Assembly: GCA_035358815.1 (NCBI GenBank)
Contig: DAOPQC010000009.1
Span: 2,405 to 66,404 of the forward strand
Direction: 5' to 3'
Length of the DNA stretch: 64,000 nt
Source of the DNA: Thermoanaerobaculales bacterium
Lineage (GTDB): Bacteria; Acidobacteriota; Thermoanaerobaculia; Thermoanaerobaculales; Sulfomarinibacteraceae
This document shows, one piece after another, positions 1,648-44,153 of the stretch. How positions within the stretch are numbered: position 1 is the first letter of the stretch; each line of letters begins with the position of its first letter. A program made the position numbers and the translations under genes. The notes beneath the pieces are model-generated. The model had not been told where the DNA came from and searched no databases. It was given only the letters and a program-made list of their open reading frames with translations.

Positions 1648-3258
1648 GTGACCGGCGAGCAGCCTTCGACCGGGTGCCAGAGCCCGGGGTCGAGCGGCGG
1701 CCCGAGCCGGCGCATCGCCGACTGGGTGTTCCTCGCCGCCGTCGTTGCGGTCGCCGCCGTGCTCCGCCTGTACCGGCTGGGTGCGGAGGGGCTGTGGTTC
1801 GACGAGGCCAACACGGCGGTGCTTGCCGGGCTCCCGGTGGGCGAGCTGCTCGAGCGGATCACGGTCGACAACCAGGCCCCCCTGTACTTCCTGCTGGTCA
1901 AGGCCGCCACGAGCATCCTGGGATGCTCCGAGTGGGCCGTCAGGTCGGTGTCGGCGGCATCAGGCATCGCGCTGGTGTGCCTGGCCTACGATGTCGGCCG
2001 CCGGTTGCTGTCGAGGGATGCCGCGCGCTGGGCCGCCATCCTGCTCGCCACCAGCCCGATGGCGATTCACTACAGCCAGGAGGCGCGCCCGTACGCGCTG
2101 TTGATGCTGCTCGTGCTGGCCGGTTTCCAGATCGCATGGAGCTTCGACGCGCGGCCGACGTTCGCTCGTGGGCTCGCTCTGGTGGCGGTGTTCCTGGCGG
2201 CGTGCCTGGCGCACAACATCGGACCGTTCTTCGTCGCCGGGCTCGCCCTGGCCAGTGTCTGCTCCGGGCGGCCCGACGCCCGCCGGCTGCGCGCGTGGGG
2301 CGCGGTCCTCGCGGCGACCGCCGTCGGCTACCTCGTCTGGCTCCCCAACCTGCTTCAGCAGGCCACTGGCATGGCTCACTCGTTCGCCTGGGCCCGCGGC
2401 ATCTGGGGCAGCGAGTTCCCGTACCAGATCCCCAGATCGCTGGCCGCGATGACGCACGGGTCGTTGGCGCCGATCCGCAACCGCGTGCCGGACATCGTGT
2501 GGCAGGCCTGGGTCGCCCTCGCGCTGTCGGGGCTGCTCTGGATCGGCGGCCTGCACCGCCGCGCGAGGCTCGCCGATCGGCGTGCGCCCTTGCTGCTGGC
2601 GCTCGCCGGCGTCACGCCACTGCTCGGCATGTGGCTCTACTCCGTCGTCTCCAGGTCGCCGATCTACCTGGTGGGACGAGTCGACAGCCCGGCTCTGCCG
2701 ATGCTCCTGCTGCTCACCGCGAGCGGCGCCGTGGCGATCAAGCCGGGCTGGAGGTGGCTCGGCCCGGGGGCGCTCATCGGCCTCGCCATCCTGCCGCTTC
2801 GGCTGCACCTGGGAATCGATTTCCGGTCGCAGGAACGGACAATGGCCCGCCTGGTCGAGGCCCAGCGTGGGGAAGGTGAGCCACTGATCACCACTGCATT
2901 CGACTGCAGCCTCGTCTACTACACGGATCTCCGGCACGGCGGCACGCTGGTGCTGTACCCGTCCGCGACCGAGCCCTTCCTGGGCTGGGTCGACTGGAGC
3001 AGGTACGACCCGGCAGCGCTCGAGGCGGACGCGGACGCGGTCGCGCTGCAGGCGATGGACCGGGCCCGTCAGAGCGAGTCTGGGAGGGTCTGGCTGCTGC
3101 TCCATCCCGATCCCAGGTACGCCGCGATCGCGACCGCGCTGGCGCGCCGGATGTCGCTGGCCGGCGAGCTGGACTTCGGGTACCTCGGCATCAAGCTGAT
3201 GGTGTACGAGCCGGCCGCGCCGCCCTCCAGGCGCGACGGCACGCTGCCGCAGCGATGA
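1648..3258 (+). CDS. Membrane glycosyltransferase, GT39/ArnT-PMT-like (GT-C fold)
   Basis: Only the C-terminal 536 aa of ORF 1054..3258 look protein-like. In-frame GTG at 1648. Many TM helices. The first loop LYRLGAEGLWFDEANTA carries the acidic DE motif typical of ArnT/PMT-type enzymes. Start is uncertain. Confidence 0.7.
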   Translation: MTGEQPSTGCQSPGSSGGPSRRIADWVFLAAVVAVAAVLRLYRLGAEGLWFDEANTAVLAGLPVGELLERITVDNQAPLYFLLVKAATSILGCSEWAVRSVSAASGIALVCLAYDVGRRLLSRDAARWAAILLATSPMAIHYSQEARPYALLMLLVLAGFQIAWSFDARPTFARGLALVAVFLAACLAHNIGPFFVAGLALASVCSGRPDARRLRAWGAVLAATAVGYLVWLPNLLQQATGMAHSFAWARGIWGSEFPYQIPRSLAAMTHGSLAPIRNRVPDIVWQAWVALALSGLLWIGGLHRRARLADRRAPLLLALAGVTPLLGMWLYSVVSRSPIYLVGRVDSPALPMLLLLTASGAVAIKPGWRWLGPGALIGLAILPLRLHLGIDFRSQERTMARLVEAQRGEGEPLITTAFDCSLVYYTDLRHGGTLVLYPSATEPFLGWVDWSRYDPAALEADADAVALQAMDRARQSESGRVWLLLHPDPRYAAIATALARRMSLAGELDFGYLGIKLMVYEPAAPPSRRDGTLPQR

Positions 3259-3568
3259 GGTCCTCGGGGGCGCTGGTCGCGGTCTGGGGTGCCCCCCCAG
3301 CGGGGCTTGACCCGGTCCTGTCAACCCACTCCAGGCGATGGTAGACTGAGCGGCGGTGGAGGGGAGGAAATTGAGAATCGGCCCGTGTGGACTTCGGCGT
3401 CCCCGGCACGCGTCTTCACGATCGAGCGCTCCAGCCCGGGTCGGCACGGCGGAGCTTCGGTCTTCTCGATGAGGGTCATCGTTGGCTGATGACGGCGGCG
3501 GGTGAACGGCCGCGCGACCGCGATCGGTCCCGTGGCCGCGAAACGCCAACCTTGAAAGGAGGCAGCAC

Positions 3569-6307
3569 ATGTCCGAGCGTCTCACCCTGGACGGCAGGGA
3601 GGTTCCTTTCCGACCGGGACAGACGGTCCTGGAGGTAGCCCGGGAGAACCACGTCAGGATCCCAGCGCTGTGCTACCACCGCAAGACCGGTCCCGCGGGT
3701 CGGTGCCGGGTCTGCGTGGTCGAGGTCGAGGGCCAGCGCGGCCTGGCCACCTCCTGCAACCTTGCCGCCAGGGCGGGGATGGTCGTCCACACCGCCTCCG
3801 AGCGTGTCCTCGAGGTGCGGCGTATGGTCGTCAACCTGCTGCTCTCGAGCGGCGAGCACAACTGCCTCGCCTGCGAGCAGAACGGCCACTGCGAGCTCCA
3901 GGACGCGGCGTACCAGCTCGGCATCGAGACGCCGGCCTTCGTCCTGTCGGGGCCCAAGGCCGAGGTGGACGACTCGAGCGAGATGATCGTCTTCGACCAC
4001 CGCAAGTGCATCCAGTGCGGCCGCTGCATCGCCGCCTGCAACCACGTGGTGGTGAACGAGGTTCTGGGCATGGCCGAGCGGGGCTTCGAGGCCAGGGTCG
4101 TGTGCGACCTCGACCAGCCGATGTCCCGGTCGACCTGCGTCCAGTGCGGCGAGTGCGTTCAGCTCTGCCCGGTGGGCGCGATCATCGACAAGAAGGCCGT
4201 CGGACGGGGCCGCGCCTGGGAGCTCGAGCAGGTCAACACCACCTGCCCCTACTGCGGGGTCGGCTGCCAGGTCACCCTGCACGTGGACCGCGGCGCGAAC
4301 CGGATCGTCCGGGTCACCGGCCGGGAGGTCCCGCCGAACGACGGCATGCTGTGCGTGAAGGGGCGCTTCGGGTACGAGTTTCCGTCGAGCCCCAAGCGGC
4401 TCACCCAGCCGATGGTCCGCAAGAACGGGAAGCTCGAGCCGGTGTCTTGGGACGAGGCGCTCGACTACACGGCGCAGCGGATCGGCGACATCGTCGCCAA
4501 GCACGGGCCCGACGTCTTCTCGGCCTTCGGGTCGGGGCGCATCACCAACGAGAACAACTACGCGATCGCGAAGTTCACGAGGGCGGTCATCAAGACCAAC
4601 AACGTCGATCACTGCGCTCGAACGTGACACGCCCCCACTGTCGCCGGTCTGGCGACAAGCTTCGGCTCGGGCGCGATGACCAACAGCATCCAGGAGCTCC
4701 AGGACGCTGACCTGATCTTCGTGATCGGCTCCAACATGACCGAGGCCCACCCGGTCATCTCGTACTACGTCAAGCGGGCCGTCAACAAGGGGGCGACCCT
4801 GATCGTGAACGATCCGCGGCGGACCGACCTCTGCCGGTGGGCAGCCCACCATGTCCAGATCAAGGTCGGCTCGGACATCGCGTACATCAACGGCCTGATC
4901 AACGAGATCTTCAAGAACGGGTGGGCGAACGAGGACTTCATCAGGGAGCACACCGAGAACCCGGACGAGATGCGCGCCTGGGCCGAGTCGTACCCCGTGG
5001 AGCGCGCCAGCGAGATCTGCGGCGTGCCGGTGGCCAGGATGAAGGAGATCGCCCGGCTGCTCGGCACGGCCAAGTCGGTGAGCGTCTGCTACACCCTGGG
5101 CATCACCGAGCACATCTGCGGCACCGACAACGTGAAGACGCTCGCCAACCTGCAGATGGTCCTGGGCAACCTCGGCAAGCACGGCGCCGGGCTGAACCCG
5201 CTGCGTGGGCAGAACAACGTCCAGGGAGCCTGCGACATGGGCGCCCTGCCCAACGTGTTCCACAACTACCAGCCGGTCACCGACGCCAAGGCGATCGAGA
5301 AGATGGAGAAGGACTGGGGCGTCACCGGCCTGTCGAGGACCGCCGGCTACAAGATGCCCACCATGCTCCACAAGGCGCTCGACGGCGGCACCAGGGTGCT
5401 CTACTGCGTTGCGGACAACACGGTCCAGACCGAGCCGCACATGGCGCACACGATCAAGGAGCTGCAGGCGCTGGAGCTCCTGGTGGTCACCGACATCTTC
5501 CCGAACCTGACCACCGCCCTGGCGCACGTGGTCTTTCCGGACTACAGCTGGGGCGAGGAGGAGGGCACGTTCTCGAACACCGAGCGGCGCGTGCAGCGCG
5601 TGCGCCGGGCCCTCACCCCGCCCGAGGGCTGCCGGCCGAACTGGTGGATCCTCCAGGAGCTCGGCAAGCGGCTGGGCTACGACCTCGGGTTTACGTCGGC
5701 GCGGGCGATCTGGGAGGACATGCGCCGGACCGCGACCAGCTACGCCGGCATCACTCACGAGCGCATCGAGGACGTGGGCCTGCAGTGGCCGTGCCCGACG
5801 CTCGAGCACCCCGGGACGGCGTTCCTGCACAAGGACGGCAAGTTCTCCCGCGGCAAAGGGCTGTTCTGCAAGACCGACTGGATCCCACCGGCCGAGGTCG
5901 TGGACGAGGAGTACCCGCTGGTGCTGTCGACCGGCCGCCGGCTCTGGCACTACCACTCCGGCACGCAGACCCGGAACTCGGTCGGGCTCGAGAACCTCTT
6001 CCCCGAGGAGCTCCTGGAGATGCACCCGACCGATGCCTCTCCGCTCGGGATCGCGAGCGGCGATCTGGTCAAGGCGGTGAGCCGCCGCGGCGAGGTCACG
6101 CTGCGCGCCTGGGTCAACGAGCGCGCGGCGCCCGGCCTGTGCTGGATGGCCTTCCACTTCGAAGAGGCGTGCGCCAACGTGCTCACCATCGATGCGTTCG
6201 ATCCGGTCACCGAGACGGCCGAGTACAAGGTGTGCGCGATCCGGGTCGAGAAGGTCCGGGACGGCGAGGCCCCGATGGAGGACCTCCGACGCCAGGCCCG
6301 GCCCTGA
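3569..6307 (+). CDS. fdhA: Formate dehydrogenase catalytic (alpha) subunit, selenocysteine-containing, NuoG-like N-terminus (912 aa with UGA=Sec at 4625-4627)
   Basis: ORFs 3569..4627 and 4676..6307 share one frame (both start = 2 mod 3). The peptide across the TGA reads [28 protein letters not shown], the conserved Sec/Cys active-site context of FdhF/FdnG. N-terminal 2Fe-2S (CYHRK..CRVC) and 4Fe-4S motifs (CIQCGRCIAAC, CVQCGECVQLCP, CPYCGVGC) are present. RBS is gaaaggagg, 8 nt upstream of the ATG. Confidence 0.9.
4625..4656 (+). promoter_or_regulatory. UGA(Sec) codon plus bacterial SECIS-like hairpin
   Basis: TGA at 4625-4627. A perfect 6-bp stem, gtcgcc (4640-4645) / ggcgac (4651-4656), starts 12 nt downstream. 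Its apical loop GGUCU is the same loop sequence as in the E. coli fdhF SECIS. Confidence 0.75.
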
Positions 6308-6337
6308 GCCGTGCCGGCGGCGGGAAAGGAGACGAAC

Positions 6338-6796
6338 ATGGCAGGCAACCTCGAAATCAAGTCCGTCCTCGACCTGGCGATCGGCCGCGAGGAGGAGGCG
6401 TTCCGCTTCTACTCCGAGGTCTCGGGGCGGGTGGAGAACCCGGGCGTGAAGGAGATCTTCGACCAGCTCGCCAAGGACGAGCTCGGCCACAAGGTGTTTC
6501 TCCAGGCGTGCCTGAAGGACCCGGAGCTCGCCTCCAAGCTCCCGGTGCCGACCGACTACAAGATCGCCGAGGCCACGGCCGAGCCGAGCCTGTCGATCGA
6601 CATGAAGCCGGCCGATGCCCTGGCCGTGGCGATGAAGAAGGAGCTGGGGGCCGCCGAGTTCTACCAGGACCTGGCGAGGTCGGCCTCCGATGCGACGCTC
6701 ACCGCCATGTTCGAGAACCTGGCCCGCATGGAGCTCGGCCACAAGAGCCGGATCGAGCACATGTTCGTGGACATCGGCTACCCGGAGGTCTTCTGA
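6338..6796 (+). CDS. Ferritin-like diiron protein (rubrerythrin N-domain type, no rubredoxin domain)
   Basis: ATG 6338 is preceded by ggaaaggag. Two E...ExxH half-sites (EEEAFRFYSE...DELGHK and ELGAAEFY...MELGHK) typical of four-helix-bundle diiron carboxylate proteins. Confidence 0.7.
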   Translation: MAGNLEIKSVLDLAIGREEEAFRFYSEVSGRVENPGVKEIFDQLAKDELGHKVFLQACLKDPELASKLPVPTDYKIAEATAEPSLSIDMKPADALAVAMKKELGAAEFYQDLARSASDATLTAMFENLARMELGHKSRIEHMFVDIGYPEVF

Positions 6797-6797
6797 C

Positions 6798-8537
6798 ATG
6801 AATCCCCACGCACGAGAGGCGATCCTGGCCCTGGCGGCCTCCTACCCGGCCCCCAAGGCAGCCCTGCTGGGGGCCCTCGAGATCCTGCAGCGGGAGGAGG
6901 GTGGCCACCTCGACGCCGAGGACCTGTCGAACGTCGCGGCCCTGCTGCGGGTGCCGCTGGCGACCGTCTACGCCACCGCCAGCTACTACACCATGCTCAA
7001 CCTCGAGCCGGTGGGCTCCTACCACCTGCAGGTCGACACCAACATCCCGGCCACCCTGGCCGGTGCCGGGGAGCTGCTCGCCCATCTCGAGCGGTCGCTT
7101 GGCATCGGCGTGGGCGAGACCACGCCCGACGGGCTGTTCACGCTCTCGGCCGTGGAGGACCTCGGGTCGTGCGGCACCTGCCCGGTGATCCAGGTCAATG
7201 ACCGGTACTACGAGAACATCACCCCCAAGAAGGCGGACGAGCTGATCGCGAGCCTCCGGCGGGGCGTGATGCCCGACTGGAAGGTCGACGGCAACTGGGC
7301 GAGCGAGTGCAACATCCTGCTCGCCCGCCGCGGCAAGCGCGGCTCGACCGCGCTGGCGGGGTACGTTGCCGACGGCGGCTACCAGGGGCTCGAGAAGGCG
7401 CTCGCGCTGCCGCCGGCCGAGGTCGCCAAGATGGTCCGGGATGCCGTGCTCCGCGGCCGCGGCGGCGCCGGCTTCCCGGCCGGGGTCAAGTGGGGGTTCA
7501 TCCCCAAGGACAACGCCAAGCCGGTCTACCTGATCGCCAACGCGGACGAGGGCGAGCCCGGGACCTTCAAGGACCGCCAGATCATGGAGTTCGACCCGCA
7601 CCTGCTGCTCGAGGGCATGGCGGTGAGCGGCTACGCGGTCGGCGCCCGGCTCGGCTACATCTACATCCGGGGCGAGTTCGCCTGGATCGCCGAGATCCTG
7701 GAGCGGGCGATCGCCGAGGCGCGCGCGGCGGGCAAGCTCGGGACAAACGTCCTCGGACGGGGCGTGGAGTTCGACGTCCGCGTCGTCCGGGGCGCCGGCG
7801 CCTACGTCTGCGGCGAGGAGACCGGGTTGATCGAGTCGCTCGAGGGCAAGCGCGGCAACCCGCGCCTGCGGCCGCCGTACCCGGCGGTCTCGGGCCTGTT
7901 CGGCTGCCCGACCATCGTCAACAACGTCGAGACCCTCGCCTGCGTGCCGTACATCGTCCGCGAGGGCGTCGAGGCATTCCGCAAGATCGGCACGCCCAAC
8001 AACTTCGGTCCCAAGATCTTCGGCGTGTCCGGGCACGTGGCGCGACCGGGGGCCTACGAGTTCCCGCTCGGCGTGCCCCTGGCCAGGGTGATCGAGGCCG
8101 CGGGTGGCGTCGTGGGCGAGCTCAAGGCGGTCATCGTGGGTGGGCTGTCGACGCCGATCCTGACCGCGGAGGAGTCCAGCGGCCTCCTGCTCGACTACGA
8201 CTCGTGTCTGAAGGCCGGCACGGCGCTCGGGTCGGGCGGCGTCATCGTCATGAACGACACGGTCCGGATGCCCGAGATCGCGCTGCGGACCATTCGCTTC
8301 TACGCCCACGAGTCGTGCGGACAGTGCACGCCGTGCCGCCAGGGGTCCGCGGCCATCGAGCAGATGCTCCACCGCGTGGTCCACGGCGGCGGCGCCCCCG
8401 AGGACCTCGAGAACGTCCTCCACCTGTGCAAGAACATCAGAGGGAACACGCTGTGCCCCACGGGCGATGCCCTCGCGATGCCGATCGAGGCCATGATCAG
8501 CAAGTTCCGGCCCGAGTTCGACGCCCTGGTCCGATAG
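6798..8537 (+). CDS. NuoE-like / NuoF fusion: NAD(H)-binding FMN/Fe-S diaphorase subunit of the formate dehydrogenase
   Basis: ATG 6798 overlaps the stop of the upstream gene region (tgacATG). NuoF motifs present: GRGGAGFPAGVKW (FMN), GAGAYVCGEETGLIESLEG (NADH) and ESCGQCTPCRQG...LCPTGD (4Fe-4S). The N-terminal ~160 aa align to the NuoE thioredoxin-like fold. Confidence 0.9.
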   Translation: MNPHAREAILALAASYPAPKAALLGALEILQREEGGHLDAEDLSNVAALLRVPLATVYATASYYTMLNLEPVGSYHLQVDTNIPATLAGAGELLAHLERSLGIGVGETTPDGLFTLSAVEDLGSCGTCPVIQVNDRYYENITPKKADELIASLRRGVMPDWKVDGNWASECNILLARRGKRGSTALAGYVADGGYQGLEKALALPPAEVAKMVRDAVLRGRGGAGFPAGVKWGFIPKDNAKPVYLIANADEGEPGTFKDRQIMEFDPHLLLEGMAVSGYAVGARLGYIYIRGEFAWIAEILERAIAEARAAGKLGTNVLGRGVEFDVRVVRGAGAYVCGEETGLIESLEGKRGNPRLRPPYPAVSGLFGCPTIVNNVETLACVPYIVREGVEAFRKIGTPNNFGPKIFGVSGHVARPGAYEFPLGVPLARVIEAAGGVVGELKAVIVGGLSTPILTAEESSGLLLDYDSCLKAGTALGSGGVIVMNDTVRMPEIALRTIRFYAHESCGQCTPCRQGSAAIEQMLHRVVHGGGAPEDLENVLHLCKNIRGNTLCPTGDALAMPIEAMISKFRPEFDALVR

Positions 8538-8992: not shown

Positions 8993-10267
8993 ATGGGAAC
9001 CGAGGCACTGGAGAAGAAGCGCTGGGTGATCGCGATCGCCGCCGTCGTCATGCAGCTGTGCCTGGGCACGGTCTACGCGTGGTCGGTGTTCAAGATCCCG
9101 CTCAAGCAGGCCCATGGCTGGGCCGAGACCCCGACCCAGGTCACCTTCATGATCTGCATCGGCATGATCGGCCTCTCCGCCGCCTTCGGCGGGATGCTGG
9201 TCGACAAGAAGGGGCCGCGGTTCGTGGCCACGCTCGGCGGCATCCTGTTCGGGGTCGGCACGCTGCTGGCGGGCCTGGCCGATCAGGTCGGCAACCTGTG
9301 GCTGCTCTACCTCGGCTTCGGCCTGATCGCCGGCCTGGGCAACGGCTTCGGCTACGTCACGCCGATCGCCACCCTGATCCGCTGGTTCCCGGACAAGCGC
9401 GGCCTGGTGACTGGCCTCGCAGTCATGGGCTTCGGCGCCGGCGCGTTCTTCATGGGCCGCATCGCGCCGCAGATGATCGCCAGCCACCAGGTCAAGGACC
9501 AGGCCGGCGCGGTGATCGCCTCCGGCGTCGCTCCCACCTTCTACATCTGGGGCCTCATCTTCCTGGTGGCGGTGACGGCCGCCGCCCAGCTGTTCAAGAA
9601 CCCGCCCGCCGGCTGGCTGCCGGCCGGCTTCACGCCGCCCGCCAAGACGGTGTCGGCGGCCGACTCGCGCAACCTGGCCGAGGCCGTCCGCACGCCGCAG
9701 TGGTGGATGCTGTGGGCCATGCTGTTCCTCAACATCTCGGCCGGGCTCGGGCTGCTGTCGCAGCTGTCGCCCATGGCCCAGGAGTTGCTCAAGGTCAAGA
9801 TCAGCGACCCGGCCAAGCTCGCGATCGCCGGCGGCACCATCCTCGCCATTGCCTCGATCTTCAACGGCCTCGGCCGGCTGTTCTGGGCCTGGCTGTCCGA
9901 CGGCATCGGCCGCAAGGCGGTGTTCGTGACCATGTTCATCACCCAGGCCATCCTCTACGTGTTCCTGCCCCAGGTGGCCACGGCGACGCTGTTCGCGATC
10001 ATCGCCTGCTACCTGCTGGCCTGCTATGGCGGCGGCTTCGCCACCATGCCGGCCTTTGCCGCGGACAGCTTCGGGCCGGCCTGCATCGGCCGGGTCTACG
10101 GCACCATGCTCACCGCCTGGGGCGTGGCCGGGGTGGTCGGGCCCCTGGTCTTCGCCCAGCTCAAGAAGCAGCAGGCCCTGTACGTGGCCGCCGGCCTGCT
10201 GACCGTCGGCCTGGTGATCGCCATCGCCTATCGCCGTCCGGCGCCCAAGCCGGTTGCGGCGACGTAG
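8993..10267 (+). CDS. MFS transporter, oxalate/formate antiporter (OFA) family
   Basis: ATG 8993 follows aaggaaaggggga. 12 TM-type hydrophobic profile. N-terminal LGTVYAWSVF motif characteristic of OFA-family MFS proteins. Confidence 0.8.
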   Translation: MGTEALEKKRWVIAIAAVVMQLCLGTVYAWSVFKIPLKQAHGWAETPTQVTFMICIGMIGLSAAFGGMLVDKKGPRFVATLGGILFGVGTLLAGLADQVGNLWLLYLGFGLIAGLGNGFGYVTPIATLIRWFPDKRGLVTGLAVMGFGAGAFFMGRIAPQMIASHQVKDQAGAVIASGVAPTFYIWGLIFLVAVTAAAQLFKNPPAGWLPAGFTPPAKTVSAADSRNLAEAVRTPQWWMLWAMLFLNISAGLGLLSQLSPMAQELLKVKISDPAKLAIAGGTILAIASIFNGLGRLFWAWLSDGIGRKAVFVTMFITQAILYVFLPQVATATLFAIIACYLLACYGGGFATMPAFAADSFGPACIGRVYGTMLTAWGVAGVVGPLVFAQLKKQQALYVAAGLLTVGLVIAIAYRRPAPKPVAAT

Positions 10268-11471
10268 CGGCCGGCACGGCAGGCTCGCCGTGCCGTCCGG
10301 CTCATGGTCCGGCCCGGAGCCGCCGCGGCCGGGCCCCGTCGAGCGGGGCGAGCGCCCCGCTCGACGGTTGTTCGGGCCAGGGTGGCTGGTGGTCGGCAGC
10401 CGGCAGGATCGGGCCGAACGGGTGGAGCTGGCGGCCGCGGTCCTGCGCCGCCTGGCACCCGGGCGGCGGATCGCCGGGGTGATGGTGACGACAACGGCCG
10501 CCGACGGCGCCGGCGGCCTGCCGGCCGGCGGCTACTCCCTGCTCGAGGACGAGCAGCCGGAACCGGGAACCGCCCCGTTCGCGATGCGGCAGGCCGGAGC
10601 GCAGCGGGTGCTGTCGCTGCGGTCGCACCCCGACGCGCTCGCCGCCGGCTTCGCCGCGGCGGTGGCGCGCCTCGGACCCGGCGCCCTCGTGGTGGCCGCC
10701 TCCAACGCGCTGCGGCGGGTCGTGGACCCCGACCTGTTCCTCATGGTCGGCCGGCCGGGCGATGCCGCGGCCTGGCCGGCGGCAGGGGAGGTCGCGCACC
10801 TGGTCGACCGTTGGGTGGATCGGCGGGCAGCGGCGGCCGAGCTTGCGCCCGCCGGGCTGGCGGTCGCCGGGGGGCGCTGGATCCTGCCGGAGCCGGCCAC
10901 CGCCATCGTCCTCGCCGGCGGGCAGAGCCGCCGCATGGGCGTCGACAAGCGATTCCTGCGGCTTCATGACCGCCCCCTCCTGGAGCGCGTCGTTGCCACC
11001 CTGCGACCGTTGGTGGGCGAGGTCGTGATCGGCGCCAACGACCCCGAGCTCGGCCGTTCCCTCGGCCTGCGCACGATCGCCGACCGGGTGCCGGGCGAGG
11101 GCCCCCTGATGGCGCTCGCCTCGGCGCTCGAGGCCACCACGAGCGACCGCAACCTGCTGGTCGCGTGCGACCTGCCGGAGATCCCGGCATCGCTGGTGAC
11201 GGCCCTGCTCGCCGCCGCCCTGACCGCCGAGGCGGTGGTGCCGGTCGGCGCGGACGGCCTGCGGGAGCCGCTGCTGGCGGTCTACCGGCGGCGCCTGCTC
11301 GGCGACGCGAATGCCCTGCTCGCGGGCGGCGAGCGCCGGCTGTGGTGGCTCGCCGAGGGCTGCCGCACGGCCTTCCTCGAGCTGTCCCGCTTCGGCATCG
11401 ATCGGCTGCCCAACCTCAACACCCGCGACGATTTCGAGCGGTACCTGGAGGGCGGCGACCCGGCCCGCTGA
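10254..11471 (+). CDS. mobA: Molybdenum cofactor guanylyltransferase MobA with ~200-aa N-terminal extension (possible degenerate MobB-like domain)
   Basis: The C-terminal half has AIVLAGGQSRRMGVDKRFL, GPLMAL and LLVACDLP, which are MobA signature blocks. N-terminal half is of unclear function. Start codon uncertain. Confidence 0.7.
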   Translation: MRRRSGRHGRLAVPSGSWSGPEPPRPGPVERGERPARRLFGPGWLVVGSRQDRAERVELAAAVLRRLAPGRRIAGVMVTTTAADGAGGLPAGGYSLLEDEQPEPGTAPFAMRQAGAQRVLSLRSHPDALAAGFAAAVARLGPGALVVAASNALRRVVDPDLFLMVGRPGDAAAWPAAGEVAHLVDRWVDRRAAAAELAPAGLAVAGGRWILPEPATAIVLAGGQSRRMGVDKRFLRLHDRPLLERVVATLRPLVGEVVIGANDPELGRSLGLRTIADRVPGEGPLMALASALEATTSDRNLLVACDLPEIPASLVTALLAAALTAEAVVPVGADGLREPLLAVYRRRLLGDANALLAGGERRLWWLAEGCRTAFLELSRFGIDRLPNLNTRDDFERYLEGGDPAR

Positions 11472-13725: not shown

Positions 13726-14838
13726 ATGAGTCATCGCGGGACGGCACGGTGGATGCTGGTTGTGGCGGCGGGACTGATGCTGGGTCTGTTCTCGAGCCGG
13801 GCCCAGGCGCAGTGGCAGGTCGCCTCTGCCGACGGCAGCTCGACGCTCAAGCTGGGCGTGCTGCTGCAGCCGCAGGGGGAGATCATCGAGACCGCGGACG
13901 CCGAGGACCACTCGCAGAACCTCTTTCTGCGGCGGGCCCGCATCCTGCTCGGCGGCACCTACTCCGAGCGGTGGTCGTTCTTCCTCGAGACCGACAGCCC
14001 CAACCTGGGCAAGAGCAAGAGCGACGGCAGCAAGACCACCGACCTCTTCATCCAGGACGTGTTCGTGACCTACTCGACCGGGGACAAGTTCAAGATCGAC
14101 GCCGGCATGATGCTGATGCCGCTCTCCCACAACCACGAGACCTCGGCCGGCATGCTGCTGCCGGTGGACTACGGCCCGTACACCTTCGTCCAGTCGGACC
14201 CGCTGACCGAGAAGGTGGGCCGCGACTACGGCATCCAGGCCCGCGGCTACCTTCTCGACAAGCACTTCGAGTACCGGGTCGGCGCCTTCCAGGGCTACCG
14301 CGGCAGCGACCTGGCCGGCGGCAGCGGCGCCGGCACCGAGCCGTTCCGGGTCACCGCCCGGGCCGTGTGGTACCCGTTCGAGGCGGAGACCGGCTACTTC
14401 TACACCGGCGCGAGCCTCGGGGCGAAGAAGATCCTCGCCGTCGGCGCCACCTACGACGTTCAAAGCTCGTACTCGACGATCGCCGCCGACCTGTTCTACG
14501 ACCAGCCCATCGCCAGCGGCGCGGTGACCTTCCAGGCCGACTGGGCCAGCATCGACGGCGACGACTTCCTGCTGTCGCTGCCCGAGCAGGACACCTGGCT
14601 GATCGAGGCGTCGTACTACCACAAGGAGACGCGGCTCGGGCCCTACCTGCAGCTCGCCTCGCGCAGCTACGCGCTCGAGGACGCGTCCCACGCGGACGAG
14701 GAGCGGATGCAGGCCGGCCTGGCCTGGTGGCTGAGCGGCCACAAGATCAACGTCAAGGGCGCCTGGACCAGGATCACCAAGGACGGCGCCCCGGATCGCG
14801 ACCAGGCGCTGCTCCAGCTGCAGGTGTTCTGGTACTGA
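13726..14838 (+). CDS. Outer-membrane beta-barrel porin (phosphate-selective porin O/P-like)
   Basis: ATG 13726 follows gagggggagg. Signal peptide ...SSRAQAQ. Alternating beta-strand pattern. C-terminal aromatic residues ...LQVFWY. Confidence 0.65.
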   Translation: MSHRGTARWMLVVAAGLMLGLFSSRAQAQWQVASADGSSTLKLGVLLQPQGEIIETADAEDHSQNLFLRRARILLGGTYSERWSFFLETDSPNLGKSKSDGSKTTDLFIQDVFVTYSTGDKFKIDAGMMLMPLSHNHETSAGMLLPVDYGPYTFVQSDPLTEKVGRDYGIQARGYLLDKHFEYRVGAFQGYRGSDLAGGSGAGTEPFRVTARAVWYPFEAETGYFYTGASLGAKKILAVGATYDVQSSYSTIAADLFYDQPIASGAVTFQADWASIDGDDFLLSLPEQDTWLIEASYYHKETRLGPYLQLASRSYALEDASHADEERMQAGLAWWLSGHKINVKGAWTRITKDGAPDRDQALLQLQVFWY

Positions 14839-14843
14839 CGGCG

Positions 14844-15437
14844 ATGCCCCACAACCCGGCGCCTGACGCCGACCGAGCCTGGCAGGAGCTGCTGACCGGC
14901 AACCGTCGCTTCGCGGCGGGCGCCCCCCGGCACCCCCGGCAGTCGGTTGCCCGCCGGGCGGAGATCGTGGCCGGGCAGCACCCGTTCGCGGTCGTGGTCG
15001 GTTGCGCGGACTCGCGGGTGCCGCCGGAGATTCTCTTCGACTGCGGCCTCGGCGACCTGTTCGTGCTGCGGGACGCCGGCAACGTTCTCGACGAGGTCGG
15101 GGAGGCCTCTCTCGAGTACGCGGTCGAGCACCTCGCGGTGCGGCTGGTGGTGGTGCTCGGTCACAGCGGCTGCGGCGCGCTCACCGCCGTCATCGAAGGC
15201 GCTCCGGTCGAGGGCCACCTCGTCCGCCTGGTCGAGCACCTGCGGCCGGCGGTGGAGCGGGCGGCGGCGAAGCCCGGGGATCTCCTGGACAACGCCGTGG
15301 TCGAGAACCTCCACAGCGAGGTCGCCCGGCTGCGGCGGCTCGAACCGGTGCTCGCCGGGCGGGTCGCCTCCGGGCAGGTGCGGATCATCGGCGCCCGCTA
15401 CGACCTGGGCAGCGGCCTGGTGACTCAGATCGTGTGA
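14844..15437 (+). CDS. Beta-class carbonic anhydrase
   Basis: ATG lies 5 nt after the porin stop. Zinc-ligand context VVVGCADSRVPPE ... LGHSGCGA (Cys-Asp-Arg / His-x-x-Cys). Confidence 0.85.
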   Translation: MPHNPAPDADRAWQELLTGNRRFAAGAPRHPRQSVARRAEIVAGQHPFAVVVGCADSRVPPEILFDCGLGDLFVLRDAGNVLDEVGEASLEYAVEHLAVRLVVVLGHSGCGALTAVIEGAPVEGHLVRLVEHLRPAVERAAAKPGDLLDNAVVENLHSEVARLRRLEPVLAGRVASGQVRIIGARYDLGSGLVTQIV

Positions 15438-15509: not shown

Positions 15510-17033
<1,524 letters not shown>

Positions 17034-17172
17034 CCCTTCGCGGACAGTCAGCTCGCGGTCGCCTTCACCCACATGCAGGTGTGTACCCTTTTCAGGTGTT
17101 CCTGTCAACCATATTTGGGTGCTGTTGTTGTGTGCAAATGCCAAAATATTGAAATGAATGATGTTGCGGACC

Positions 17173-17188
17173 TGGCGTGAGTCTTGCT
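17173..17188 (+). promoter_or_regulatory. Candidate sigma-54 (-24/-12) promoter for the USP gene
   Basis: TGGCGT-gagtc-TTGCT has GG-N10-GC spacing matching TGGCAC-N5-TTGCW. It lies in an unusually AT-rich gap, ~68 nt upstream of ATG 17256 and divergent from a sigma-54 activator. Confidence 0.5.
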
Positions 17189-17255
17189 GAAGGCGAGTGC
17201 TGGGCGAGACGAATGACCATCGGAGCACGGCTCGCCGGCAACCGGGAGGTGCACG

Positions 17256-17807: not shown

Positions 17808-18164
17808 TCAGAGCGCCACGATCTGCTTGAAGCCGCCCCAGAACATCCGCTTGCCGTCGAACGGCATCTTGGACATGTCCATGTTGGCGAACCGGGGGTC
17901 CTTCATGATCTTGGCGTTGACCTGGTCGCGGTGCTTGCGCGAGCGGTAGACGACGTACGCGAAGACCACGGTCTCGTCGCGCTTGAGCTTGACGCTCTGC
18001 GGGAACGAGGTCAGCTTGCCCGGCTTCACGTCGTCGGCGACGCACTCGACGTACTCGAGCGCCCCGTACTCCTTGCAGACGGCGGCCATCTTGCGGGCGA
18101 GGCGGCGATAGGAGTCCAGCTTCGCCTTCTTGACCGGAACCACGAAACCATCGACGTAGTGCAT
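17808..18164 (-). CDS. DUF1428-family small protein
   Basis: MHYVDGFVVPVKKAKLDSYR...MPFDGKRMFWGGF pattern typical of DUF1428. Ordinary amino-acid composition. Confidence 0.7.
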   Translation of the reverse strand: MHYVDGFVVPVKKAKLDSYRRLARKMAAVCKEYGALEYVECVADDVKPGKLTSFPQSVKLKRDETVVFAYVVYRSRKHRDQVNAKIMKDPRFANMDMSKMPFDGKRMFWGGFKQIVAL

Positions 18165-29370: not shown

Positions 29371-31455
29371 CTACTCCTCCTCCTCCTCGCGCTTGCCGGC
29401 GGCGGCGATGATCTTCTCCTGCAGGTGCTTGGGCACCTCGTCGTAGCGGTTGAACTCCATGTGGAAGTCGCCGCGGCCGCCGGTGATCGAACGCAGGGTC
29501 GCCGCGTAGGTCAGCATCTCGGCCAGCGGCACCTGGGCCTTGACGGTGGTGGTGCCGCCTTCGGTGTCCATGCCCTGGACGCGGCCGCGCCGCGAGTTGA
29601 GGTCGCCCATGACGTCGCCCATGCACTCCTCGGGGATGTAGGCCTCGATCTGCATGATCGGCTCGAGCAGGGTCGGGTTGCACTGGGAGGCGCACTCCCG
29701 GAACGCCTTGCGGCCCGCGATCTTGAACGCCATCTCCGAGGAGTCCACCGAGTGCTCCTTGCCGTCGAGCAGGGTGACCTTGAAGTCGACCATCGGGTAG
29801 CCGGCGAGCACGCCGCGCGCCGCGGCCTCCTGGACCCCCTTGTCGACGGCCGGCCGGTAGCCTTGAGAGATCGAGCCGCCGTAGATCTTGTCGACGAACT
29901 CGTAGCCGTTGCCCCGGTTCGGCTCCATGCTGATCCGGCACTCGGCGAACTGGCCCGAGCCGCCGGTCTGCTTCTTGTGGCGCGTCGTCACGTCGGCCGA
30001 GCCGGTGATGGTCTCCCGGTAGGGGACCTTGGGCTGGTGGAGGTTGACGTCCACCTTGTAGCGCTTCTTGAGCCGGCCCACCACCACCTCGACGTGGAGC
30101 TGGCCGGTGCCGGAGATCAGGAGCTCCTTGGTCTGCGGGTCACGGCCGACCGCGATCGTCGGGTCCTCGTCCCGGATCCTGGCCAGCGCGGCCGCCAGCT
30201 TGTCCTCGTCACCCTTCGACTTGGGCTCCAGCGCGAAGCTGATCGAGGCCTCGGGGATCGGCACCGCCGCGACCCGGATCGACTTCTTGGGCGGGCACAG
30301 GGTGTCGCCGGTGTGGGTGTCCTTGAGCTTGGGGACGGCGCCGATGTCGCCGGCCGCGAGCGCCTCCACGTGCTCCAGCTCCTTGCCCTGGACCACCGAC
30401 AGCGCGCCGAGGCGCTCGGAGCCGTCGCGGGTTGCGTTGGCGACGGTGGCGTCGGAGGCGATGCCGCCTGACAGCACCCGCAGCAGCGAGATCCGTCCGG
30501 TGTACGGGTCGGAGATGGTCTTGAAGACGTAGGCGACGAAGGGGGAGTCGGCGGAAACTGCGAGCTCCTGCTCCTCGCCGTCGACGGTGGCGGCGAACCG
30601 GCGCCAGCTCGGGCTCGGCGCGAGGTCGACCAGCGCGTCCATGAGCGGCTGGACGGCGATGTTCTTGCCCCCGGCCAGCGCGAACACCGGACACAGCGCG
30701 CGCGACTCGACGGCCGCCTTCAGCCCCTTGCGGAAGGTCTCCGGTTCGAGGCCGCCGCTCTCGAGGTAGCTCTCCATGAGCGCCTCGTCCTGCTCGGCCA
30801 CCATCTCGAACAGGGCCTCGCGCGCCGCGGCCACGTCGTCGGCCATCGCGGCCGGGATGGCGACCTCGGCGGCCTTGCCGCTCTCGTCGTGCGGCCAGGT
30901 GAAGGCCTTGCCGCTGACCAGGTCGACCACCCCTTCAAACGCTGCCTCCTCGCCGATCGGGAGCTGGACCGGGATCACCTCGCGGCCGTACTTCTGCTGC
31001 AGCGACGCGACCGTGCGCGAGAACGACGCGCGGTCCCGGTCCAGCAGGTTGACGGCGAAGAGCAGCGGCAGCGAGGAGCTGGCGGCCGCCTTCCACAGCT
31101 TGTCGGTCTGGACCTCGGGGCCGGCAACCGCCGACACCAGCATCAGCGCCGCGTCGGCCACCCGCAGCCCCTGCAGCGCGTCGGTGGTGTAGATCCCGTA
31201 CCCGGGCGTGTCGACGAGGTTGACCTTGGTCCCCATGCGGTCGAAGTGGGCGACCGCGGTGTTGATCGTGATCTTGCGCTCCTGCTCGTCCTCGTCGAAG
31301 TCGGTCGTCGTGTTGCCGTCCTCCACCTTGCAGAGCCGATTGACGACGCCCGCGTCGAACAGCATGGCCGACACCAGCGAGGTCTTCCCGGTGTGGGAGT
31401 GCCCGATGACCGCGACGTTGCGGATCGTGTCTGTGGTGTAGGTGTTCGCGCTCAT
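29371..31455 (-). CDS. fusA: Elongation factor G family GTPase (stand-alone paralog, not in an rpsL-rpsG-tuf context)
   Basis: G1 AVIGHSHTGKTS, G3 DTPGY, and EF-G domains II-V throughout (694 aa). Confidence 0.9.
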   Translation of the reverse strand: MSANTYTTDTIRNVAVIGHSHTGKTSLVSAMLFDAGVVNRLCKVEDGNTTTDFDEDEQERKITINTAVAHFDRMGTKVNLVDTPGYGIYTTDALQGLRVADAALMLVSAVAGPEVQTDKLWKAAASSSLPLLFAVNLLDRDRASFSRTVASLQQKYGREVIPVQLPIGEEAAFEGVVDLVSGKAFTWPHDESGKAAEVAIPAAMADDVAAAREALFEMVAEQDEALMESYLESGGLEPETFRKGLKAAVESRALCPVFALAGGKNIAVQPLMDALVDLAPSPSWRRFAATVDGEEQELAVSADSPFVAYVFKTISDPYTGRISLLRVLSGGIASDATVANATRDGSERLGALSVVQGKELEHVEALAAGDIGAVPKLKDTHTGDTLCPPKKSIRVAAVPIPEASISFALEPKSKGDEDKLAAALARIRDEDPTIAVGRDPQTKELLISGTGQLHVEVVVGRLKKRYKVDVNLHQPKVPYRETITGSADVTTRHKKQTGGSGQFAECRISMEPNRGNGYEFVDKIYGGSISQGYRPAVDKGVQEAAARGVLAGYPMVDFKVTLLDGKEHSVDSSEMAFKIAGRKAFRECASQCNPTLLEPIMQIEAYIPEECMGDVMGDLNSRRGRVQGMDTEGGTTTVKAQVPLAEMLTYAATLRSITGGRGDFHMEFNRYDEVPKHLQEKIIAAAGKREEEEE

Positions 31456-38491: not shown

Positions 38492-38564
38492 CGTCCACCT
38501 CCCGTTCCGCCAACAGGCAGTGCAACCGACGTGCCAGCGGGATTTCGGGAACGCGGTGCGTTCA

Positions 38565-38940
38565 CCCGTTTCCGTTTCCGTCTCCGCGCCCCTGCCCGAG
38601 ATGGCGCTCGTGCACCGTGCGGTCTCATCGGGGACGGAGACGGGCACGGAGACGGGCAGGGAGACGGGCAGGGACGCGGGCGGCGGCCATTTGACCTGTC
38701 ACCGGTCACCGATCACTCTCCCGGAGGCGGGAACGGGAACGGGAATCCGGCTTCGCCTTCCGGCTCCGTTCGGCGAACTCCGCCGTGACGAGTCGGCTCC
38801 GCCGTGACAAGCGGGGACGGGCACCCTTCGACTCGCGGCGCTGCGGCGCCGCTCGCTCAGGGCAGGCCCCTCGGGCTCGGAAGCGGAAGCGGGCGGGCGC
38901 CCAATCCCCCAGATCCCAGATCCTGGCCGGGTGGGGGCGG
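38565..38940. repeat. Mosaic intergenic repeat locus E
   Basis: C-arm cccgtttccgtttccgtctccgcgcccctgcccg at 38565-38598. 31-nt core. G-arm (GGAGACGGGCA-type) at 38630-38686. gggaacgggaacgggaat at 38729-38746. ggaagcggaagcgggcgggcgc at 38879-38900. cccagat x2 at 38908-38921. Confidence 0.8.
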
Positions 38941-44041: not shown

Positions 44042-44153
44042 GTTGACAGGGTAGCAGAGGAAGCATGACCCGCTCGAGGCACGATCGTGGCGAAGCCGAG
44101 GCGGCGGTCGCTGGGTCGGAGGGGGCGGATCAGGTCGGCTGCATCGTGCTGCC

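What the first reader, a model, noticed from the sequence alone, without database searches (positions are those of the whole stretch)
3569..6307. ORF-track split is a selenocysteine recoding event: a single 912-aa Sec-formate dehydrogenase with SECIS
The apparent stop at 4625-4627 lies exactly at the conserved active-site position ([14 protein letters not shown]). Both track ORFs share one frame.

A 6-bp stem with a GGUCU loop starts 12 nt downstream, matching the geometry and loop sequence of the E. coli fdhF SECIS.

Reading it as a stop would wrongly yield a truncated Fe-S protein plus an N-terminally truncated molybdopterin protein, or a pseudogene call.
Basis: partly seen in the sequence, partly recalled or inferred. 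Interest (0 to 1): 0.6.

Follow-up and report, generated by a model that had tools for sequence, protein, structure and literature searches.

The report
Selenocysteine-coding formate dehydrogenase gene with SECIS
The apparent stop codon that splits this gene in two is almost certainly read as the rare amino acid selenocysteine, giving one 912-residue formate dehydrogenase; this is a textbook mechanism in a new, uncultured organism, so it matters mainly for correct annotation.

Summary
Window 3569-6307 (+) is one reading frame of 912 codons plus a stop, broken only by TGA at 4625-4627.

- **Position of the TGA.** It aligns with Sec140 of E. coli FdhF and with the Mo/W-ligand Cys of solved Cys-type enzymes. 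The catalytic His and Arg are conserved as H354 and R546.
- **Family.** The joined protein passes NCBIfam TIGR01591 (formate dehydrogenase alpha) above its curated cutoff. One Pfam Molybdopterin domain spans the TGA.
- **Hairpin.** GUCGCC-GGUCU-GGCGAC lies at 4640-4656. Its GGUCU loop starts 18 nt after the UGA, as in E. coli fdhF.
- **Comparative evidence.** Of 42 related genome loci, 26 have TGA at this codon and 16 have TGC/TGT. The TGA group keeps the hairpin (99.4% of cells paired, one compensatory pair) and freezes its synonymous sites. The Cys group lets them drift.
- **sel genes.** Five TGA-type loci carry selC, selA and/or selB within about 10 kb upstream of fdhA.

The weak points are that the window has no sel genes or tRNA-Sec, the rest of the source genome is unavailable, and the hairpin's stability alone is not significant. 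This is a new member of a known kind, and interest is low.

The parts
3556..3562 (+). Shine-Dalgarno-like AAGGAGG, 6 nt before the ATG of fdhA
   Evidence: Read directly from the sequence.
3569..6307 (+). fdhA: one 912-residue formate dehydrogenase alpha subunit. Domains in order: 2Fe-2S, NuoG-type 4Fe-4S, 2x[4Fe-4S] ferredoxin, Molybdop_Fe4S4, Molybdopterin, Molydop_binding. One in-frame UGA.
   Evidence: Translation. Pfam domains, with Molybdopterin 277-701 spanning the TGA. TIGR01591 at 753.8 bits against cutoff 666.25. PDB hits to FdsA, HDCR FdhF and FdhF with E values of 1e-197 to 1e-168. GC3 is 0.93 before and 0.96 after the TGA in the same frame.
4625..4627 (+). UGA read as selenocysteine (residue 353), the Mo/W ligand. 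It is followed by catalytic His354; Arg546 corresponds to E. coli Arg333.
   Evidence: Aligns with E. coli FdhF codon 140 (TGA) and with Cys in R. capsulatus FdsA and T. kivui FdhF. The same codon is TGA in 26 of 42 related loci and TGC/TGT in 16.
4640..4656 (+). SECIS core hairpin: stem GUCGCC/GGCGAC with apical loop GGUCU (4646-4650). An optional seventh pair, U4639-A4657, exists in this sequence only.
   Evidence: Fold. 99.4% of cells paired in 27 sequences; pair 24-36 shows CG:22 GC:3 GU:1 UA:1. Synonymous sites are frozen in the Sec type only; mean energy is -10.9 against -3.5 kcal/mol. Same loop and spacing as E. coli fdhF.
4622..4680 (+). Stretch matching Rfam SECIS_3 (RF01989) over the full model, below the gathering score
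   Evidence: 31.5 bits against a gathering score of 63; E = 1.3e-5 in a 201-nt search.
6338..6796 (+). Rubrerythrin-like (ferritin-fold) protein of 152 aa with two ExxH motifs. A homologue lies within the fetched locus in most relatives, usually just downstream of fdhA.
   Evidence: PF02915 on the identical public gene call. tblastn matches in 35 of 42 loci, of both Sec and Cys type.
6798..8537 (+). Fused NuoE-like/NuoF-like subunit (2Fe-2S thioredoxin-like, FMN/NAD(H)-binding 51K domain, 4Fe-4S). It is the presumed diaphorase partner of FdhA.
   Evidence: Pfam on the public gene call. NF010120 NuoF at 442.6 bits against cutoff 389, with NuoE-family matches at residues 7-154. A homologue lies in the fetched locus of most relatives.
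8993..10267 (+). MFS monocarboxylate transporter; possible formate or lactate carrier of the locus
   Evidence: NF049980 SfMCT at 405 bits against cutoff 320. The oxalate/formate antiporter families score below their cutoffs.
10368..11471 (+). MobA-like molybdenum cofactor guanylyltransferase domain (residues 178-356) with an unassigned N-terminal half. Presumed to mature the bis-MGD cofactor.
   Evidence: TIGR02665 at 112.6 bits, below its cutoff of 151.85. PF12804 on the public gene call.

Best explanation
Window 3569-6307 encodes one selenocysteine-containing formate dehydrogenase alpha subunit of the cytoplasmic FdhF/FdsA type (TIGR01591).

During translation, the UGA at 4625-4627 is not read by release factor 2. 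The hairpin 4640-4656 in the mRNA has an exposed GGUCU loop beginning 18 nt after the UGA. It would recruit SelB-GTP-Sec-tRNA(Sec) to the ribosomal A site, and selenocysteine would be inserted as residue 353. There it is expected to ligate the Mo or W of the bis-MGD cofactor, next to His354 and Arg546.

The alpha subunit also carries an N-terminal NuoG-like chain of Fe-S clusters. It most likely works with the adjacent fused NuoE/NuoF-like protein as a soluble NAD(P)-linked formate dehydrogenase/CO2 reductase.

Shown here: the frame, the homology, the active-site alignment, conservation and covariation of the hairpin, and linkage to sel genes in relatives. Inferred: actual Sec insertion in this organism, SelB binding, the metal, and the electron acceptor.
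For: 1. The frame is continuous and the coding signal is the same on both sides of the TGA (GC3 0.93 and 0.96). Only two TGAs in 64 kb have stop-free, coding-like flanks on both sides: this one, and the true fdhA stop at 6305.
2. One Molybdopterin domain spans the TGA. The joined protein passes TIGR01591.
3. TGA aligns with Sec140 of E. coli FdhF, H354 with H141 and R546 with R333, at 40% identity over 696 aa. It also aligns with the ligand Cys in the solved Cys-type enzymes. The motif U-H-x-P is the one listed for FdhA selenoproteins (PMC13188914).
4. 26 of 42 related genome loci, labelled as several different phyla, have TGA at the same codon; 16 have TGC/TGT.
5. In the 27 TGA-type sequences the 6-bp stem is paired in 99.4% of cells. 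Pair 24-36 shows compensatory changes (CG 22, GC 3, GU 1, UA 1) and pair 23-37 switches between UA (14) and UG (13). Slid controls give 17-65% pairing.
6. Third-position entropy at the Ala, Gly and Leu codons that form the hairpin is 0.23, 0.23 and 0 bits in the Sec type, against 1.92, 1.81 and 1.25 in the Cys type. Flanking four-fold codons in the Sec type vary freely (1.6-1.9 bits). Hairpin energy is -10.9 +/- 1.0 against -3.5 +/- 2.8 kcal/mol.
7. The loop GGUCU and the 18-nt spacing are identical to E. coli fdhF. The bSECIS criteria that could be read (loop 3-9 nt, stem 4-16 bp, G in the first two loop positions, spacing 16-37 nt; PMC13188914) are all met. Rfam SECIS_3 matches over its full length at E = 1.3e-5.
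8. tRNA-Sec lies upstream of fdhA in L008, L031, L036 and L037 (RF01852 above its gathering score in three of them). SelA and SelB are encoded there as well. No sel gene was seen in any Cys-type locus.
9. TGA is the commonest ordinary stop codon of the window's genes, so a reassigned genetic code is not the explanation.
Against: - No tRNA-Sec, selA or selB lies in the 64-kb window. selD was not specifically searched for. The rest of the source genome could not be read.
- The hairpin's folding energy is not unusual for this G+C content: z = -1.48. Generic bSECIS-like hairpins follow 28% of TGAs in the window.
- The Rfam SECIS_3 score of 31.5 bits is below the gathering score of 63. No ortholog tested reaches it either.
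- The bulged U of the E. coli fdhF element is absent. That U pairs with A or G here.
- The Cys-type genes form one clade, so the Sec-versus-Cys contrast is a single evolutionary event. The within-clade contrast between hairpin codons and flanking codons does not depend on that.
- There is no protein-level evidence.
Confidence: 0.93

Rival explanations
1. The TGA is a true stop. The locus is then either a pseudogene (a Cys codon mutated to TGA) or two separate genes: a 352-aa Fe-S protein and a 543-aa molybdopterin protein initiated at ATG 4676.
For: This is how public gene callers annotate it: 352 or 303 aa plus 543 aa. More than 20 database clusters are 533-545-aa C-terminal fragments. TGA is a normal stop codon in this genome.
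Against: - The same TGA recurs in 26 orthologs at 47-83% best-segment identity, with intact frames and conserved protein sequence on both sides.
- A start at 4676 would delete U353, catalytic H354 and the invariant HAPTVAGL...GSGA segment.
- No Shine-Dalgarno-like sequence precedes 4676.
- One Pfam domain is cut in half by the TGA.
- Frozen synonymous sites and a compensatory pair in the hairpin are unexplained by a stop.
Confidence: 0.03
2. The gene is of the selenoprotein type, but this organism has lost, or never had, a working Sec machinery. The gene could, for example, have arrived by horizontal transfer without sel genes. The UGA would then mostly terminate, or be read through inefficiently by a near-cognate Cys or Trp tRNA.
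For: No sel genes or tRNA-Sec lie in the window, whereas several relatives carry them right beside fdhA. The nearest GTDB relatives of the gene are labelled Actinomycetota at 81-83% identity. The window, by contrast, carries diderm-type genes such as a porin. That would be compatible with transfer between lineages.
Against: - The hairpin in the window is the intact consensus form, and the rest of the gene shows no decay.
- 21 of the 26 TGA-type loci also show no sel genes within the flanks fetched. Distant sel genes are therefore the usual arrangement.
- The identical 543-aa C-terminal product is encoded on 15 contigs from several samples, which suggests a maintained gene.
Confidence: 0.04

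Closest known systems
E. coli FdhF (formate dehydrogenase H, Sec140) and its fdhF SECIS
   Same: - The catalytic core is homologous: 40% identity over 696 aa.
- UGA is at the aligned codon, followed by His, and the Arg333 equivalent is conserved.
- The SECIS lies in the same codons (V-A-G-L), with the same GGUCU loop 18 nt after the UGA.
   Different: - The window protein has about 218 extra N-terminal residues carrying a 2Fe-2S cluster and further 4Fe-4S clusters, like NuoG.
- Its neighbour is a NuoE/F-like protein, not hydrogenase-3 genes.
- The stem is a perfect 6-bp G+C-rich helix without the bulged U of the E. coli element.
- No sigma-54 promoter match was found upstream.
Rhodobacter capsulatus FdsABG(D), the NAD+-dependent Mo formate dehydrogenase (PDB 6tg9), and the related 9wxb chain
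   Same: These are the best full-length structural relatives, with E values of 1e-195 to 1e-197 over residues 4-910. The alpha subunit has the same domain order. The partners are NuoE-like and NuoF-like (and my knowledge of the Fds system).
   Different: - The Fds enzymes have Cys at the ligand position where the window has UGA.
- Here the NuoE-like and NuoF-like parts are fused in one 579-aa protein.
- A rubrerythrin-like gene lies between alpha and the NuoE/F protein.
- No FdsD or FdsC homologue was identified.
Sec/W-containing soluble formate dehydrogenases of anaerobes (Moorella thermoacetica FdhAB, Syntrophobacter fumaroxidans FDH-1, clostridial FdhA/FdhF2) - named from my own knowledge, not compared here
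   Same: Each has a long alpha subunit with N-terminal Fe-S domains, Sec at the metal, and NuoE/F-type partner subunits. Many relatives of the window gene come from MAGs labelled Syntrophales or Syntrophaceae, and several carry digester-style isolate names.
   Different: No sequence of these enzymes was retrieved, so identity and orthology are untested. Whether the metal is W or Mo cannot be read from sequence.
Rfam SECIS_3 (RF01989) and the bSECIS consensus model (Zhang and Gladyshev, as summarised in PMC13188914)
   Same: The match covers the full model starting at the UGA. The loop, stem, G-position and spacing criteria of the bSECIS model are all met.
   Different: The score is half the family's gathering threshold (31.5 against 63 bits). 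The model's bulged U is base-paired here.

Membership tests
Formate dehydrogenase alpha subunit, FdhF/FdsA type (NCBIfam TIGR01591) | Whole-protein score above the curated cutoff of the equivalog model | tested here: met
   753.8 bits against cutoff 666.25, covering residues 224-893 and the whole 672-position model, with Cys substituted at residue 353. FdnG-type TIGR01553 is not met: 262.8 against 814.2.
Formate dehydrogenase alpha subunit, FdhF/FdsA type (NCBIfam TIGR01591) | Mo/W-bis-PGD domain set: Molybdop_Fe4S4 + Molybdopterin + Molydop_binding | tested here: met
   PF04879 at residues 222-271, PF00384 at 277-701 and PF01568 at 784-890.
Formate dehydrogenase alpha subunit, FdhF/FdsA type (NCBIfam TIGR01591) | Active-site Sec/Cys-His pair and conserved Arg (E. 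coli U140, H141, R333) | tested here: met
   U353, H354 and R546 align with them. The UHxP motif is present.
Formate dehydrogenase alpha subunit, FdhF/FdsA type (NCBIfam TIGR01591) | Formate oxidation / CO2 reduction activity; Mo or W content | not testable with these tools
   Needs purified enzyme.
Bacterial SECIS element (bSECIS model) | [quoted passage not shown] | tested here: met
   Hairpin at 4640-4656, 12 nt after the UGA.
Bacterial SECIS element (bSECIS model) | Apical loop of 3-9 nt, upper stem of 4-16 bp, G in one of the first two loop positions, and 16-37 nt between the UGA and the loop (criteria from PMC13188914) | tested here: met
   The loop is 5 nt (GGUCU), the stem is 6 bp (7 in the window), and the spacing is 18 nt. 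The criteria are loose: 28% of all TGAs in the window meet a comparable filter.
Bacterial SECIS element (bSECIS model) | Structure conserved among orthologous selenoprotein genes and lost in Cys-type orthologs | tested here: met
   99.4% of cells paired, with one compensatory pair, in 27 Sec-type sequences. Synonymous sites are frozen in the Sec type only, and energy is -10.9 against -3.5 kcal/mol.
Bacterial SECIS element (bSECIS model) | Binding by SelB and SECIS-dependent UGA read-through | not testable with these tools
   Needs a binding or reporter assay.
Rfam SECIS_3 (RF01989) | Score at or above the family's gathering threshold | tested here: not met
   31.5 bits against 63; E = 1.3e-5 on 201 nt. 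It is absent from the gathering-level scan of the window and of six related loci.
E. coli fdhF-type SECIS | GGUC(U) apical loop at a fixed distance from the UGA | tested here: met
   GGUCU begins 18 nt after the UGA in both sequences.
E. coli fdhF-type SECIS | Bulged U in the upper stem (its importance for E. coli SelB is from my knowledge) | tested here: not met
   The corresponding U (4641) pairs with A4655. Across orthologs this pair is U-A in 14 sequences and U-G in 13.
Selenocysteine-decoding trait of the host genome | selC (tRNA-Sec), selA, selB and selD present in the same genome | not testable with these tools
   Within the window there is no tRNA-Sec (ARAGORN, Rfam) and no SelA or SelB by tblastn. 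selD was not specifically queried. The remainder of the genome is not available. In TGA-type relatives, selC, selA and/or selB lie within about 10 kb upstream of fdhA in L008, L010, L031, L036 and L037.

The most novel reading that the evidence does not exclude
The unit fdhA + rubrerythrin-like gene + fused nuoE/F may be a compact formate dehydrogenase module that moves between phyla. In some relatives selC, selA and selB sit inside it, so the module would carry its own Sec-decoding genes. MAG labels for close relatives range over Actinomycetota/Gaiellales, Syntrophales, Planctomycetia and Myxococcota. The small diiron rubrerythrin-like protein would then be a previously unrecognised conserved partner of this enzyme clade, for example for protection against oxygen or peroxide.
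Probability: 0.15. Interest if true: 0.4.

Novelty: new member of a known kind. Interest (0 to 1): 0.15.

Why it matters
- **Annotation.** Read as a stop, the gene becomes two fragments or a pseudogene, and the organism's capacity for formate oxidation or CO2 reduction is missed. Public gene calls for this exact gene are split. More than 20 database clusters are 533-545-aa C-terminal fragments of close homologues.
- **Inference about the organism.** The finding implies that this uncultured organism uses selenium and should carry the sel genes somewhere in its genome.
- **Mechanism.** Nothing new is revealed. Sec-containing FdhA is described as the most widely distributed bacterial selenoprotein family (PMC13188914).

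Tried and rejected
- **Thermodynamic significance of the hairpin.** It is not significant: z = -1.48. I therefore relied on comparative data.
- **Longer SECIS structure.** The outer helix and the second small hairpin from RNAfold, and the seventh base pair, are poorly conserved: 74%, 51% and 8 of 27 sequences paired. I rejected them as parts of the element.
- **Rfam at the gathering threshold.** There is no SECIS hit in the window or in six relatives. Only a sub-threshold SECIS_3 match appears.
- **sel genes in the window.** tblastn with SelA and SelB from L008 and L031 gave only a weak GTPase-domain hit at 31105-31404, in an ORF that reads by eye as an EF-G-like GTPase.
- **Other selenoprotein genes in the window.** None were found. 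The only other TGA with coding-like flanks is the true fdhA stop at 6305. The same-frame ORF pairs at 17808 and 59383 are separate genes, judged by eye.
- **Sigma-54 promoter upstream of fdhA.** I looked because an FhlA-like activator is nearby. There is no match with up to 2 mismatches in 3258-3569, and window-wide counts equal chance.
- **Reassigned genetic code.** Rejected, because TGA ends most genes in the window.
- **Finding the source genome.** The scan of GTDB species genomes gave a best hit of only 83% best-segment identity.
Full report
**Observation.**
The window has an ATG at 3569, preceded by AAGGAGG at 3556-3562. An open frame runs from there to the TGA at 6305-6307 and is interrupted only by TGA at 4625-4627. 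The mechanical ORF list shows the two halves, 3569..4627 (352 aa) and 4676..6307 (543 aa), in the same frame. Third-position G+C is 0.93 before and 0.96 after the TGA in that frame. Across the whole 64 kb, on both strands, only two TGA codons have 70 stop-free, coding-like codons on both sides. One is this TGA. The other is the true stop of the same gene at 6305, which happens to be in frame with the next gene and its own ribosome-binding site.

**What the protein is.**
With Cys or X placed at residue 353, the 912-residue product has these Pfam domains, in order:
- Fer2_4
- NADH-G_4Fe-4S_3
- a 2x[4Fe-4S] ferredoxin domain
- Molybdop_Fe4S4
- Molybdopterin (residues 277-701, a single domain spanning the TGA)
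- Molydop_binding

It passes the NCBIfam equivalog TIGR01591, formate dehydrogenase subunit alpha, at 753.8 bits against a cutoff of 666.25. It fails the FdnG-type model TIGR01553.

The best solved relatives are NAD-dependent FdsA-type enzymes (9wxb; 6tg9 from R. capsulatus), T. kivui HDCR FdhF, and E. coli FdhF. Their E values range from 1e-197 to 1e-168. In the printed alignments the TGA codon lies opposite the ligand Cys of the Cys-type enzymes.

I fetched E. coli fdhF from a RefSeq genome, where it is annotated as selenocysteine-containing. The two proteins are 40% identical over 696 residues. The window's codon 353 aligns with E. coli codon 140, which is TGA (Sec140). H354 aligns with H141 and R546 with R333.

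**The hairpin.**
GUCGCC (4640-4645) pairs with GGCGAC (4651-4656) around the loop GGUCU. The stem begins 12 nt after the UGA and the loop begins 18 nt after it. In E. coli fdhF the same V-A-G-L codons form the SECIS, and GGUCU also begins 18 nt after the UGA. The bSECIS criteria quoted in a 2026 review are all met (PMC13188914):
- loop of 3-9 nt
- stem of 4-16 bp
- G in the first two loop positions
- spacing of 16-37 nt

Rfam SECIS_3 aligns over its full 59 positions starting at the UGA. It scores only 31.5 bits against a gathering score of 63. The model's bulged U is paired here.

**Is the hairpin more than chance?**
On its own it is not. The folding z-score is -1.48. In this 71% G+C window a comparable hairpin follows 28% of all 1204 TGA trinucleotides, or 7.6% when only Watson-Crick pairs are allowed. 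The exact E. coli-like geometry occurs once in 1204, and that one is the finding itself.

**Comparative evidence.**
A scan of one genome per GTDB species returned 42 loci encoding relatives, at 47-83% best-segment identity.
- **Codon.** At the aligned codon, 26 loci have TGA and 16 have TGC or TGT.
- **Pairing.** In an alignment of the 27 TGA-type sequences (A1), the 6-bp stem is paired in 99.4% of cells, against 17-65% when the partner columns are slid. Pair 24-36 shows compensatory changes (CG 22, GC 3, GU 1, UA 1). Pair 23-37 alternates between U-A (14) and U-G (13).
- **Rejected extensions.** The seventh pair seen in the window and the outer helices proposed by RNAfold are not conserved.
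- **Synonymous sites.** The amino acids V-A-G-L-A are invariant in both groups, but their codons are not. Third-position entropy at the Ala, Gly and Leu codons is 0.23, 0.23 and 0 bits in the TGA group, against 1.92, 1.81 and 1.25 bits in the Cys group. Neighbouring four-fold codons in the TGA group vary freely, at 1.6-1.9 bits.
- **Energy.** Mean hairpin energy is -10.9 +/- 1.0 kcal/mol in the TGA group and -3.5 +/- 2.8 in the Cys group.
- **Caveat.** The Cys-type genes form one clade in a neighbour-joining tree. The between-group contrast is therefore a single evolutionary event. The within-group contrast between hairpin codons and flanking codons does not depend on that.

**Sec machinery.**
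The window contains only tRNA-Val and tRNA-Asp. It has no SelA or SelB homologue.

In relatives, ARAGORN finds tRNA-Sec 2.3-5.1 kb upstream of fdhA in L008, L031, L036 and L037. Rfam RF01852 confirms it above the gathering score in L008, L036 and L037.

In L008 and L031 the gene order is nuoE/F, rubrerythrin-like gene, selC, selA, then selB on the opposite strand, then fdhA(TGA). The Pfam SelA matches have E values of 1e-126 to 1e-127. In L008, SelB shows the beta-barrel and winged-helix domains. selB or selA also lies next to fdhA in L010, L036 and L037. All five of these loci are TGA-type, and no sel gene appears in any Cys-type locus.

**Context and mechanism.**
The exact 543-aa C-terminal product is encoded on 15 public contigs, including a 156-kb JGI contig. 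Gene callers there split the gene into 352 (or 303) + 543 aa. Downstream of fdhA lie:
- a 152-aa rubrerythrin-like protein
- a fused NuoE/NuoF-like protein (NF010120 above its cutoff)
- a receiver-domain protein
- an MFS monocarboxylate transporter (NF049980 above its cutoff)
- a MobA-like protein
- a GAF histidine kinase
- a porin
- a beta-carbonic anhydrase
- a GAF/sigma-54 activator whose best match is FhlA, below the cutoff

Homologues of the rubrerythrin-like gene lie within the fetched locus in 35 of 42 relatives, and NuoE/F homologues in most, though often at low identity and varying position.

The most likely function is a soluble formate dehydrogenase/CO2 reductase linked to NAD(P). 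In it, Sec353 would ligate Mo or W, and electrons would pass through the NuoG-like Fe-S chain to the FMN of the NuoF-like domain. That function is inferred from homology. Sec insertion through SelB and the SECIS is inferred from the comparative data.

**Rivals.**
- **True stop, pseudogene or two genes.** This is contradicted by recurrence of the TGA in 26 orthologs with conserved sequence on both sides. A start at 4676 would also lose U353 and H354, the TGA cuts one domain in half, and selection on the hairpin's synonymous sites would be unexplained.
- **Reassigned code.** Excluded, because TGA ends most genes in the window.
- **Selenoprotein-type gene in a host without working Sec machinery.** This remains possible, since no sel genes were seen. 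However, 21 of the 26 TGA-type loci also show none within the fetched flanks. The window's hairpin is also the intact consensus form.

**Novelty.**
Sec-containing FdhA with a coding-region SECIS is the founding example of bacterial selenoproteins, and it is described as the most widespread family (PMC13188914). This is a new member in an uncultured organism. The practical value is correcting the annotation. Interest is low.

Noticed in passing
window 6338-6796; related loci L001-L040: A 152-aa rubrerythrin-like gene with two ExxH motifs has a homologue within the fetched locus in 35 of 42 related loci, of both Sec and Cys type. In most it lies directly downstream of fdhA. It may be a conserved, undescribed partner of this formate dehydrogenase clade.
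   Followed up: partly
L008 3249-12736; L031 4151-12736: In two TGA-type relatives the Sec-decoding genes are embedded in the formate dehydrogenase locus. The order is nuoE/F, rubrerythrin-like gene, tRNA-Sec, selA, selB on the opposite strand, then fdhA. selA and/or selB also lie beside fdhA in L010, L036 and L037.
   Followed up: yes
codon +17 after the Sec/Cys codon (window 4676-4678, the ATG that gene callers used as the start of the 543-aa fragment): This residue is Met in all 27 Sec-type sequences (GAMTN) and Ala in all 16 Cys-type sequences (GAATN). The correlation with the Sec/Cys state is perfect, but it could simply reflect the single clade split.
   Followed up: no
window 6305-6340: The true stop TGA of fdhA is in the same frame as the next gene, 10 codons away. 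It was the only other TGA in the window with coding-like flanks on both sides. The next gene has its own GGAAAGGAG ribosome-binding site and ATG, so this is probably coincidence.
   Followed up: partly
window versus loci L001-L006, L009, L034, L040: The closest GTDB relatives of this fdhA (78-83% best-segment identity) are MAGs labelled Actinomycetota, Gaiellales or Thermoleophilia. The window itself encodes a Porin_O_P porin and, by eye, a TonB-dependent receptor and a Pal-like protein. Flanking genes are not shared. This suggests either horizontal transfer of the module or mis-binning.
   Followed up: partly
window 38521-38536 (-): There is a perfect sigma-54 -24/-12 consensus, TGGCACGTCGGTTGCA, near the 5' end of the long minus-strand ORF 36347-38698. 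No such site lies upstream of fdhA, even though an FhlA-like sigma-54 activator is encoded at 15510-17228 (-).
   Followed up: no
window 13753-14838 and 14844-15437: The porin's best NCBIfam match is ExtI, the porin of a selenite/tellurite reduction operon, at 92.9 bits against a cutoff of 150. A beta-carbonic anhydrase follows it directly. Both could relate to selenium uptake and to CO2/bicarbonate supply for the formate dehydrogenase.
   Followed up: no
window 8993-10267: The MFS transporter next to the formate dehydrogenase passes the SfMCT L-lactate transporter model (405 bits against cutoff 320). It does not pass the oxalate/formate antiporter models.
   Followed up: no
L034 10001-12735: The fdhA match in this Thermoleophilia MAG is 2735 nt long, which is not a multiple of three. 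The C-terminal tblastn match also starts late. A frameshift or assembly error is likely in that record.
   Followed up: no
window 44047-44940: This stretch translates to a long Gly/Val repeat on the + strand and has no clear gene call. It lies upstream of the minus-strand PBP1A-like gene.
   Followed up: no
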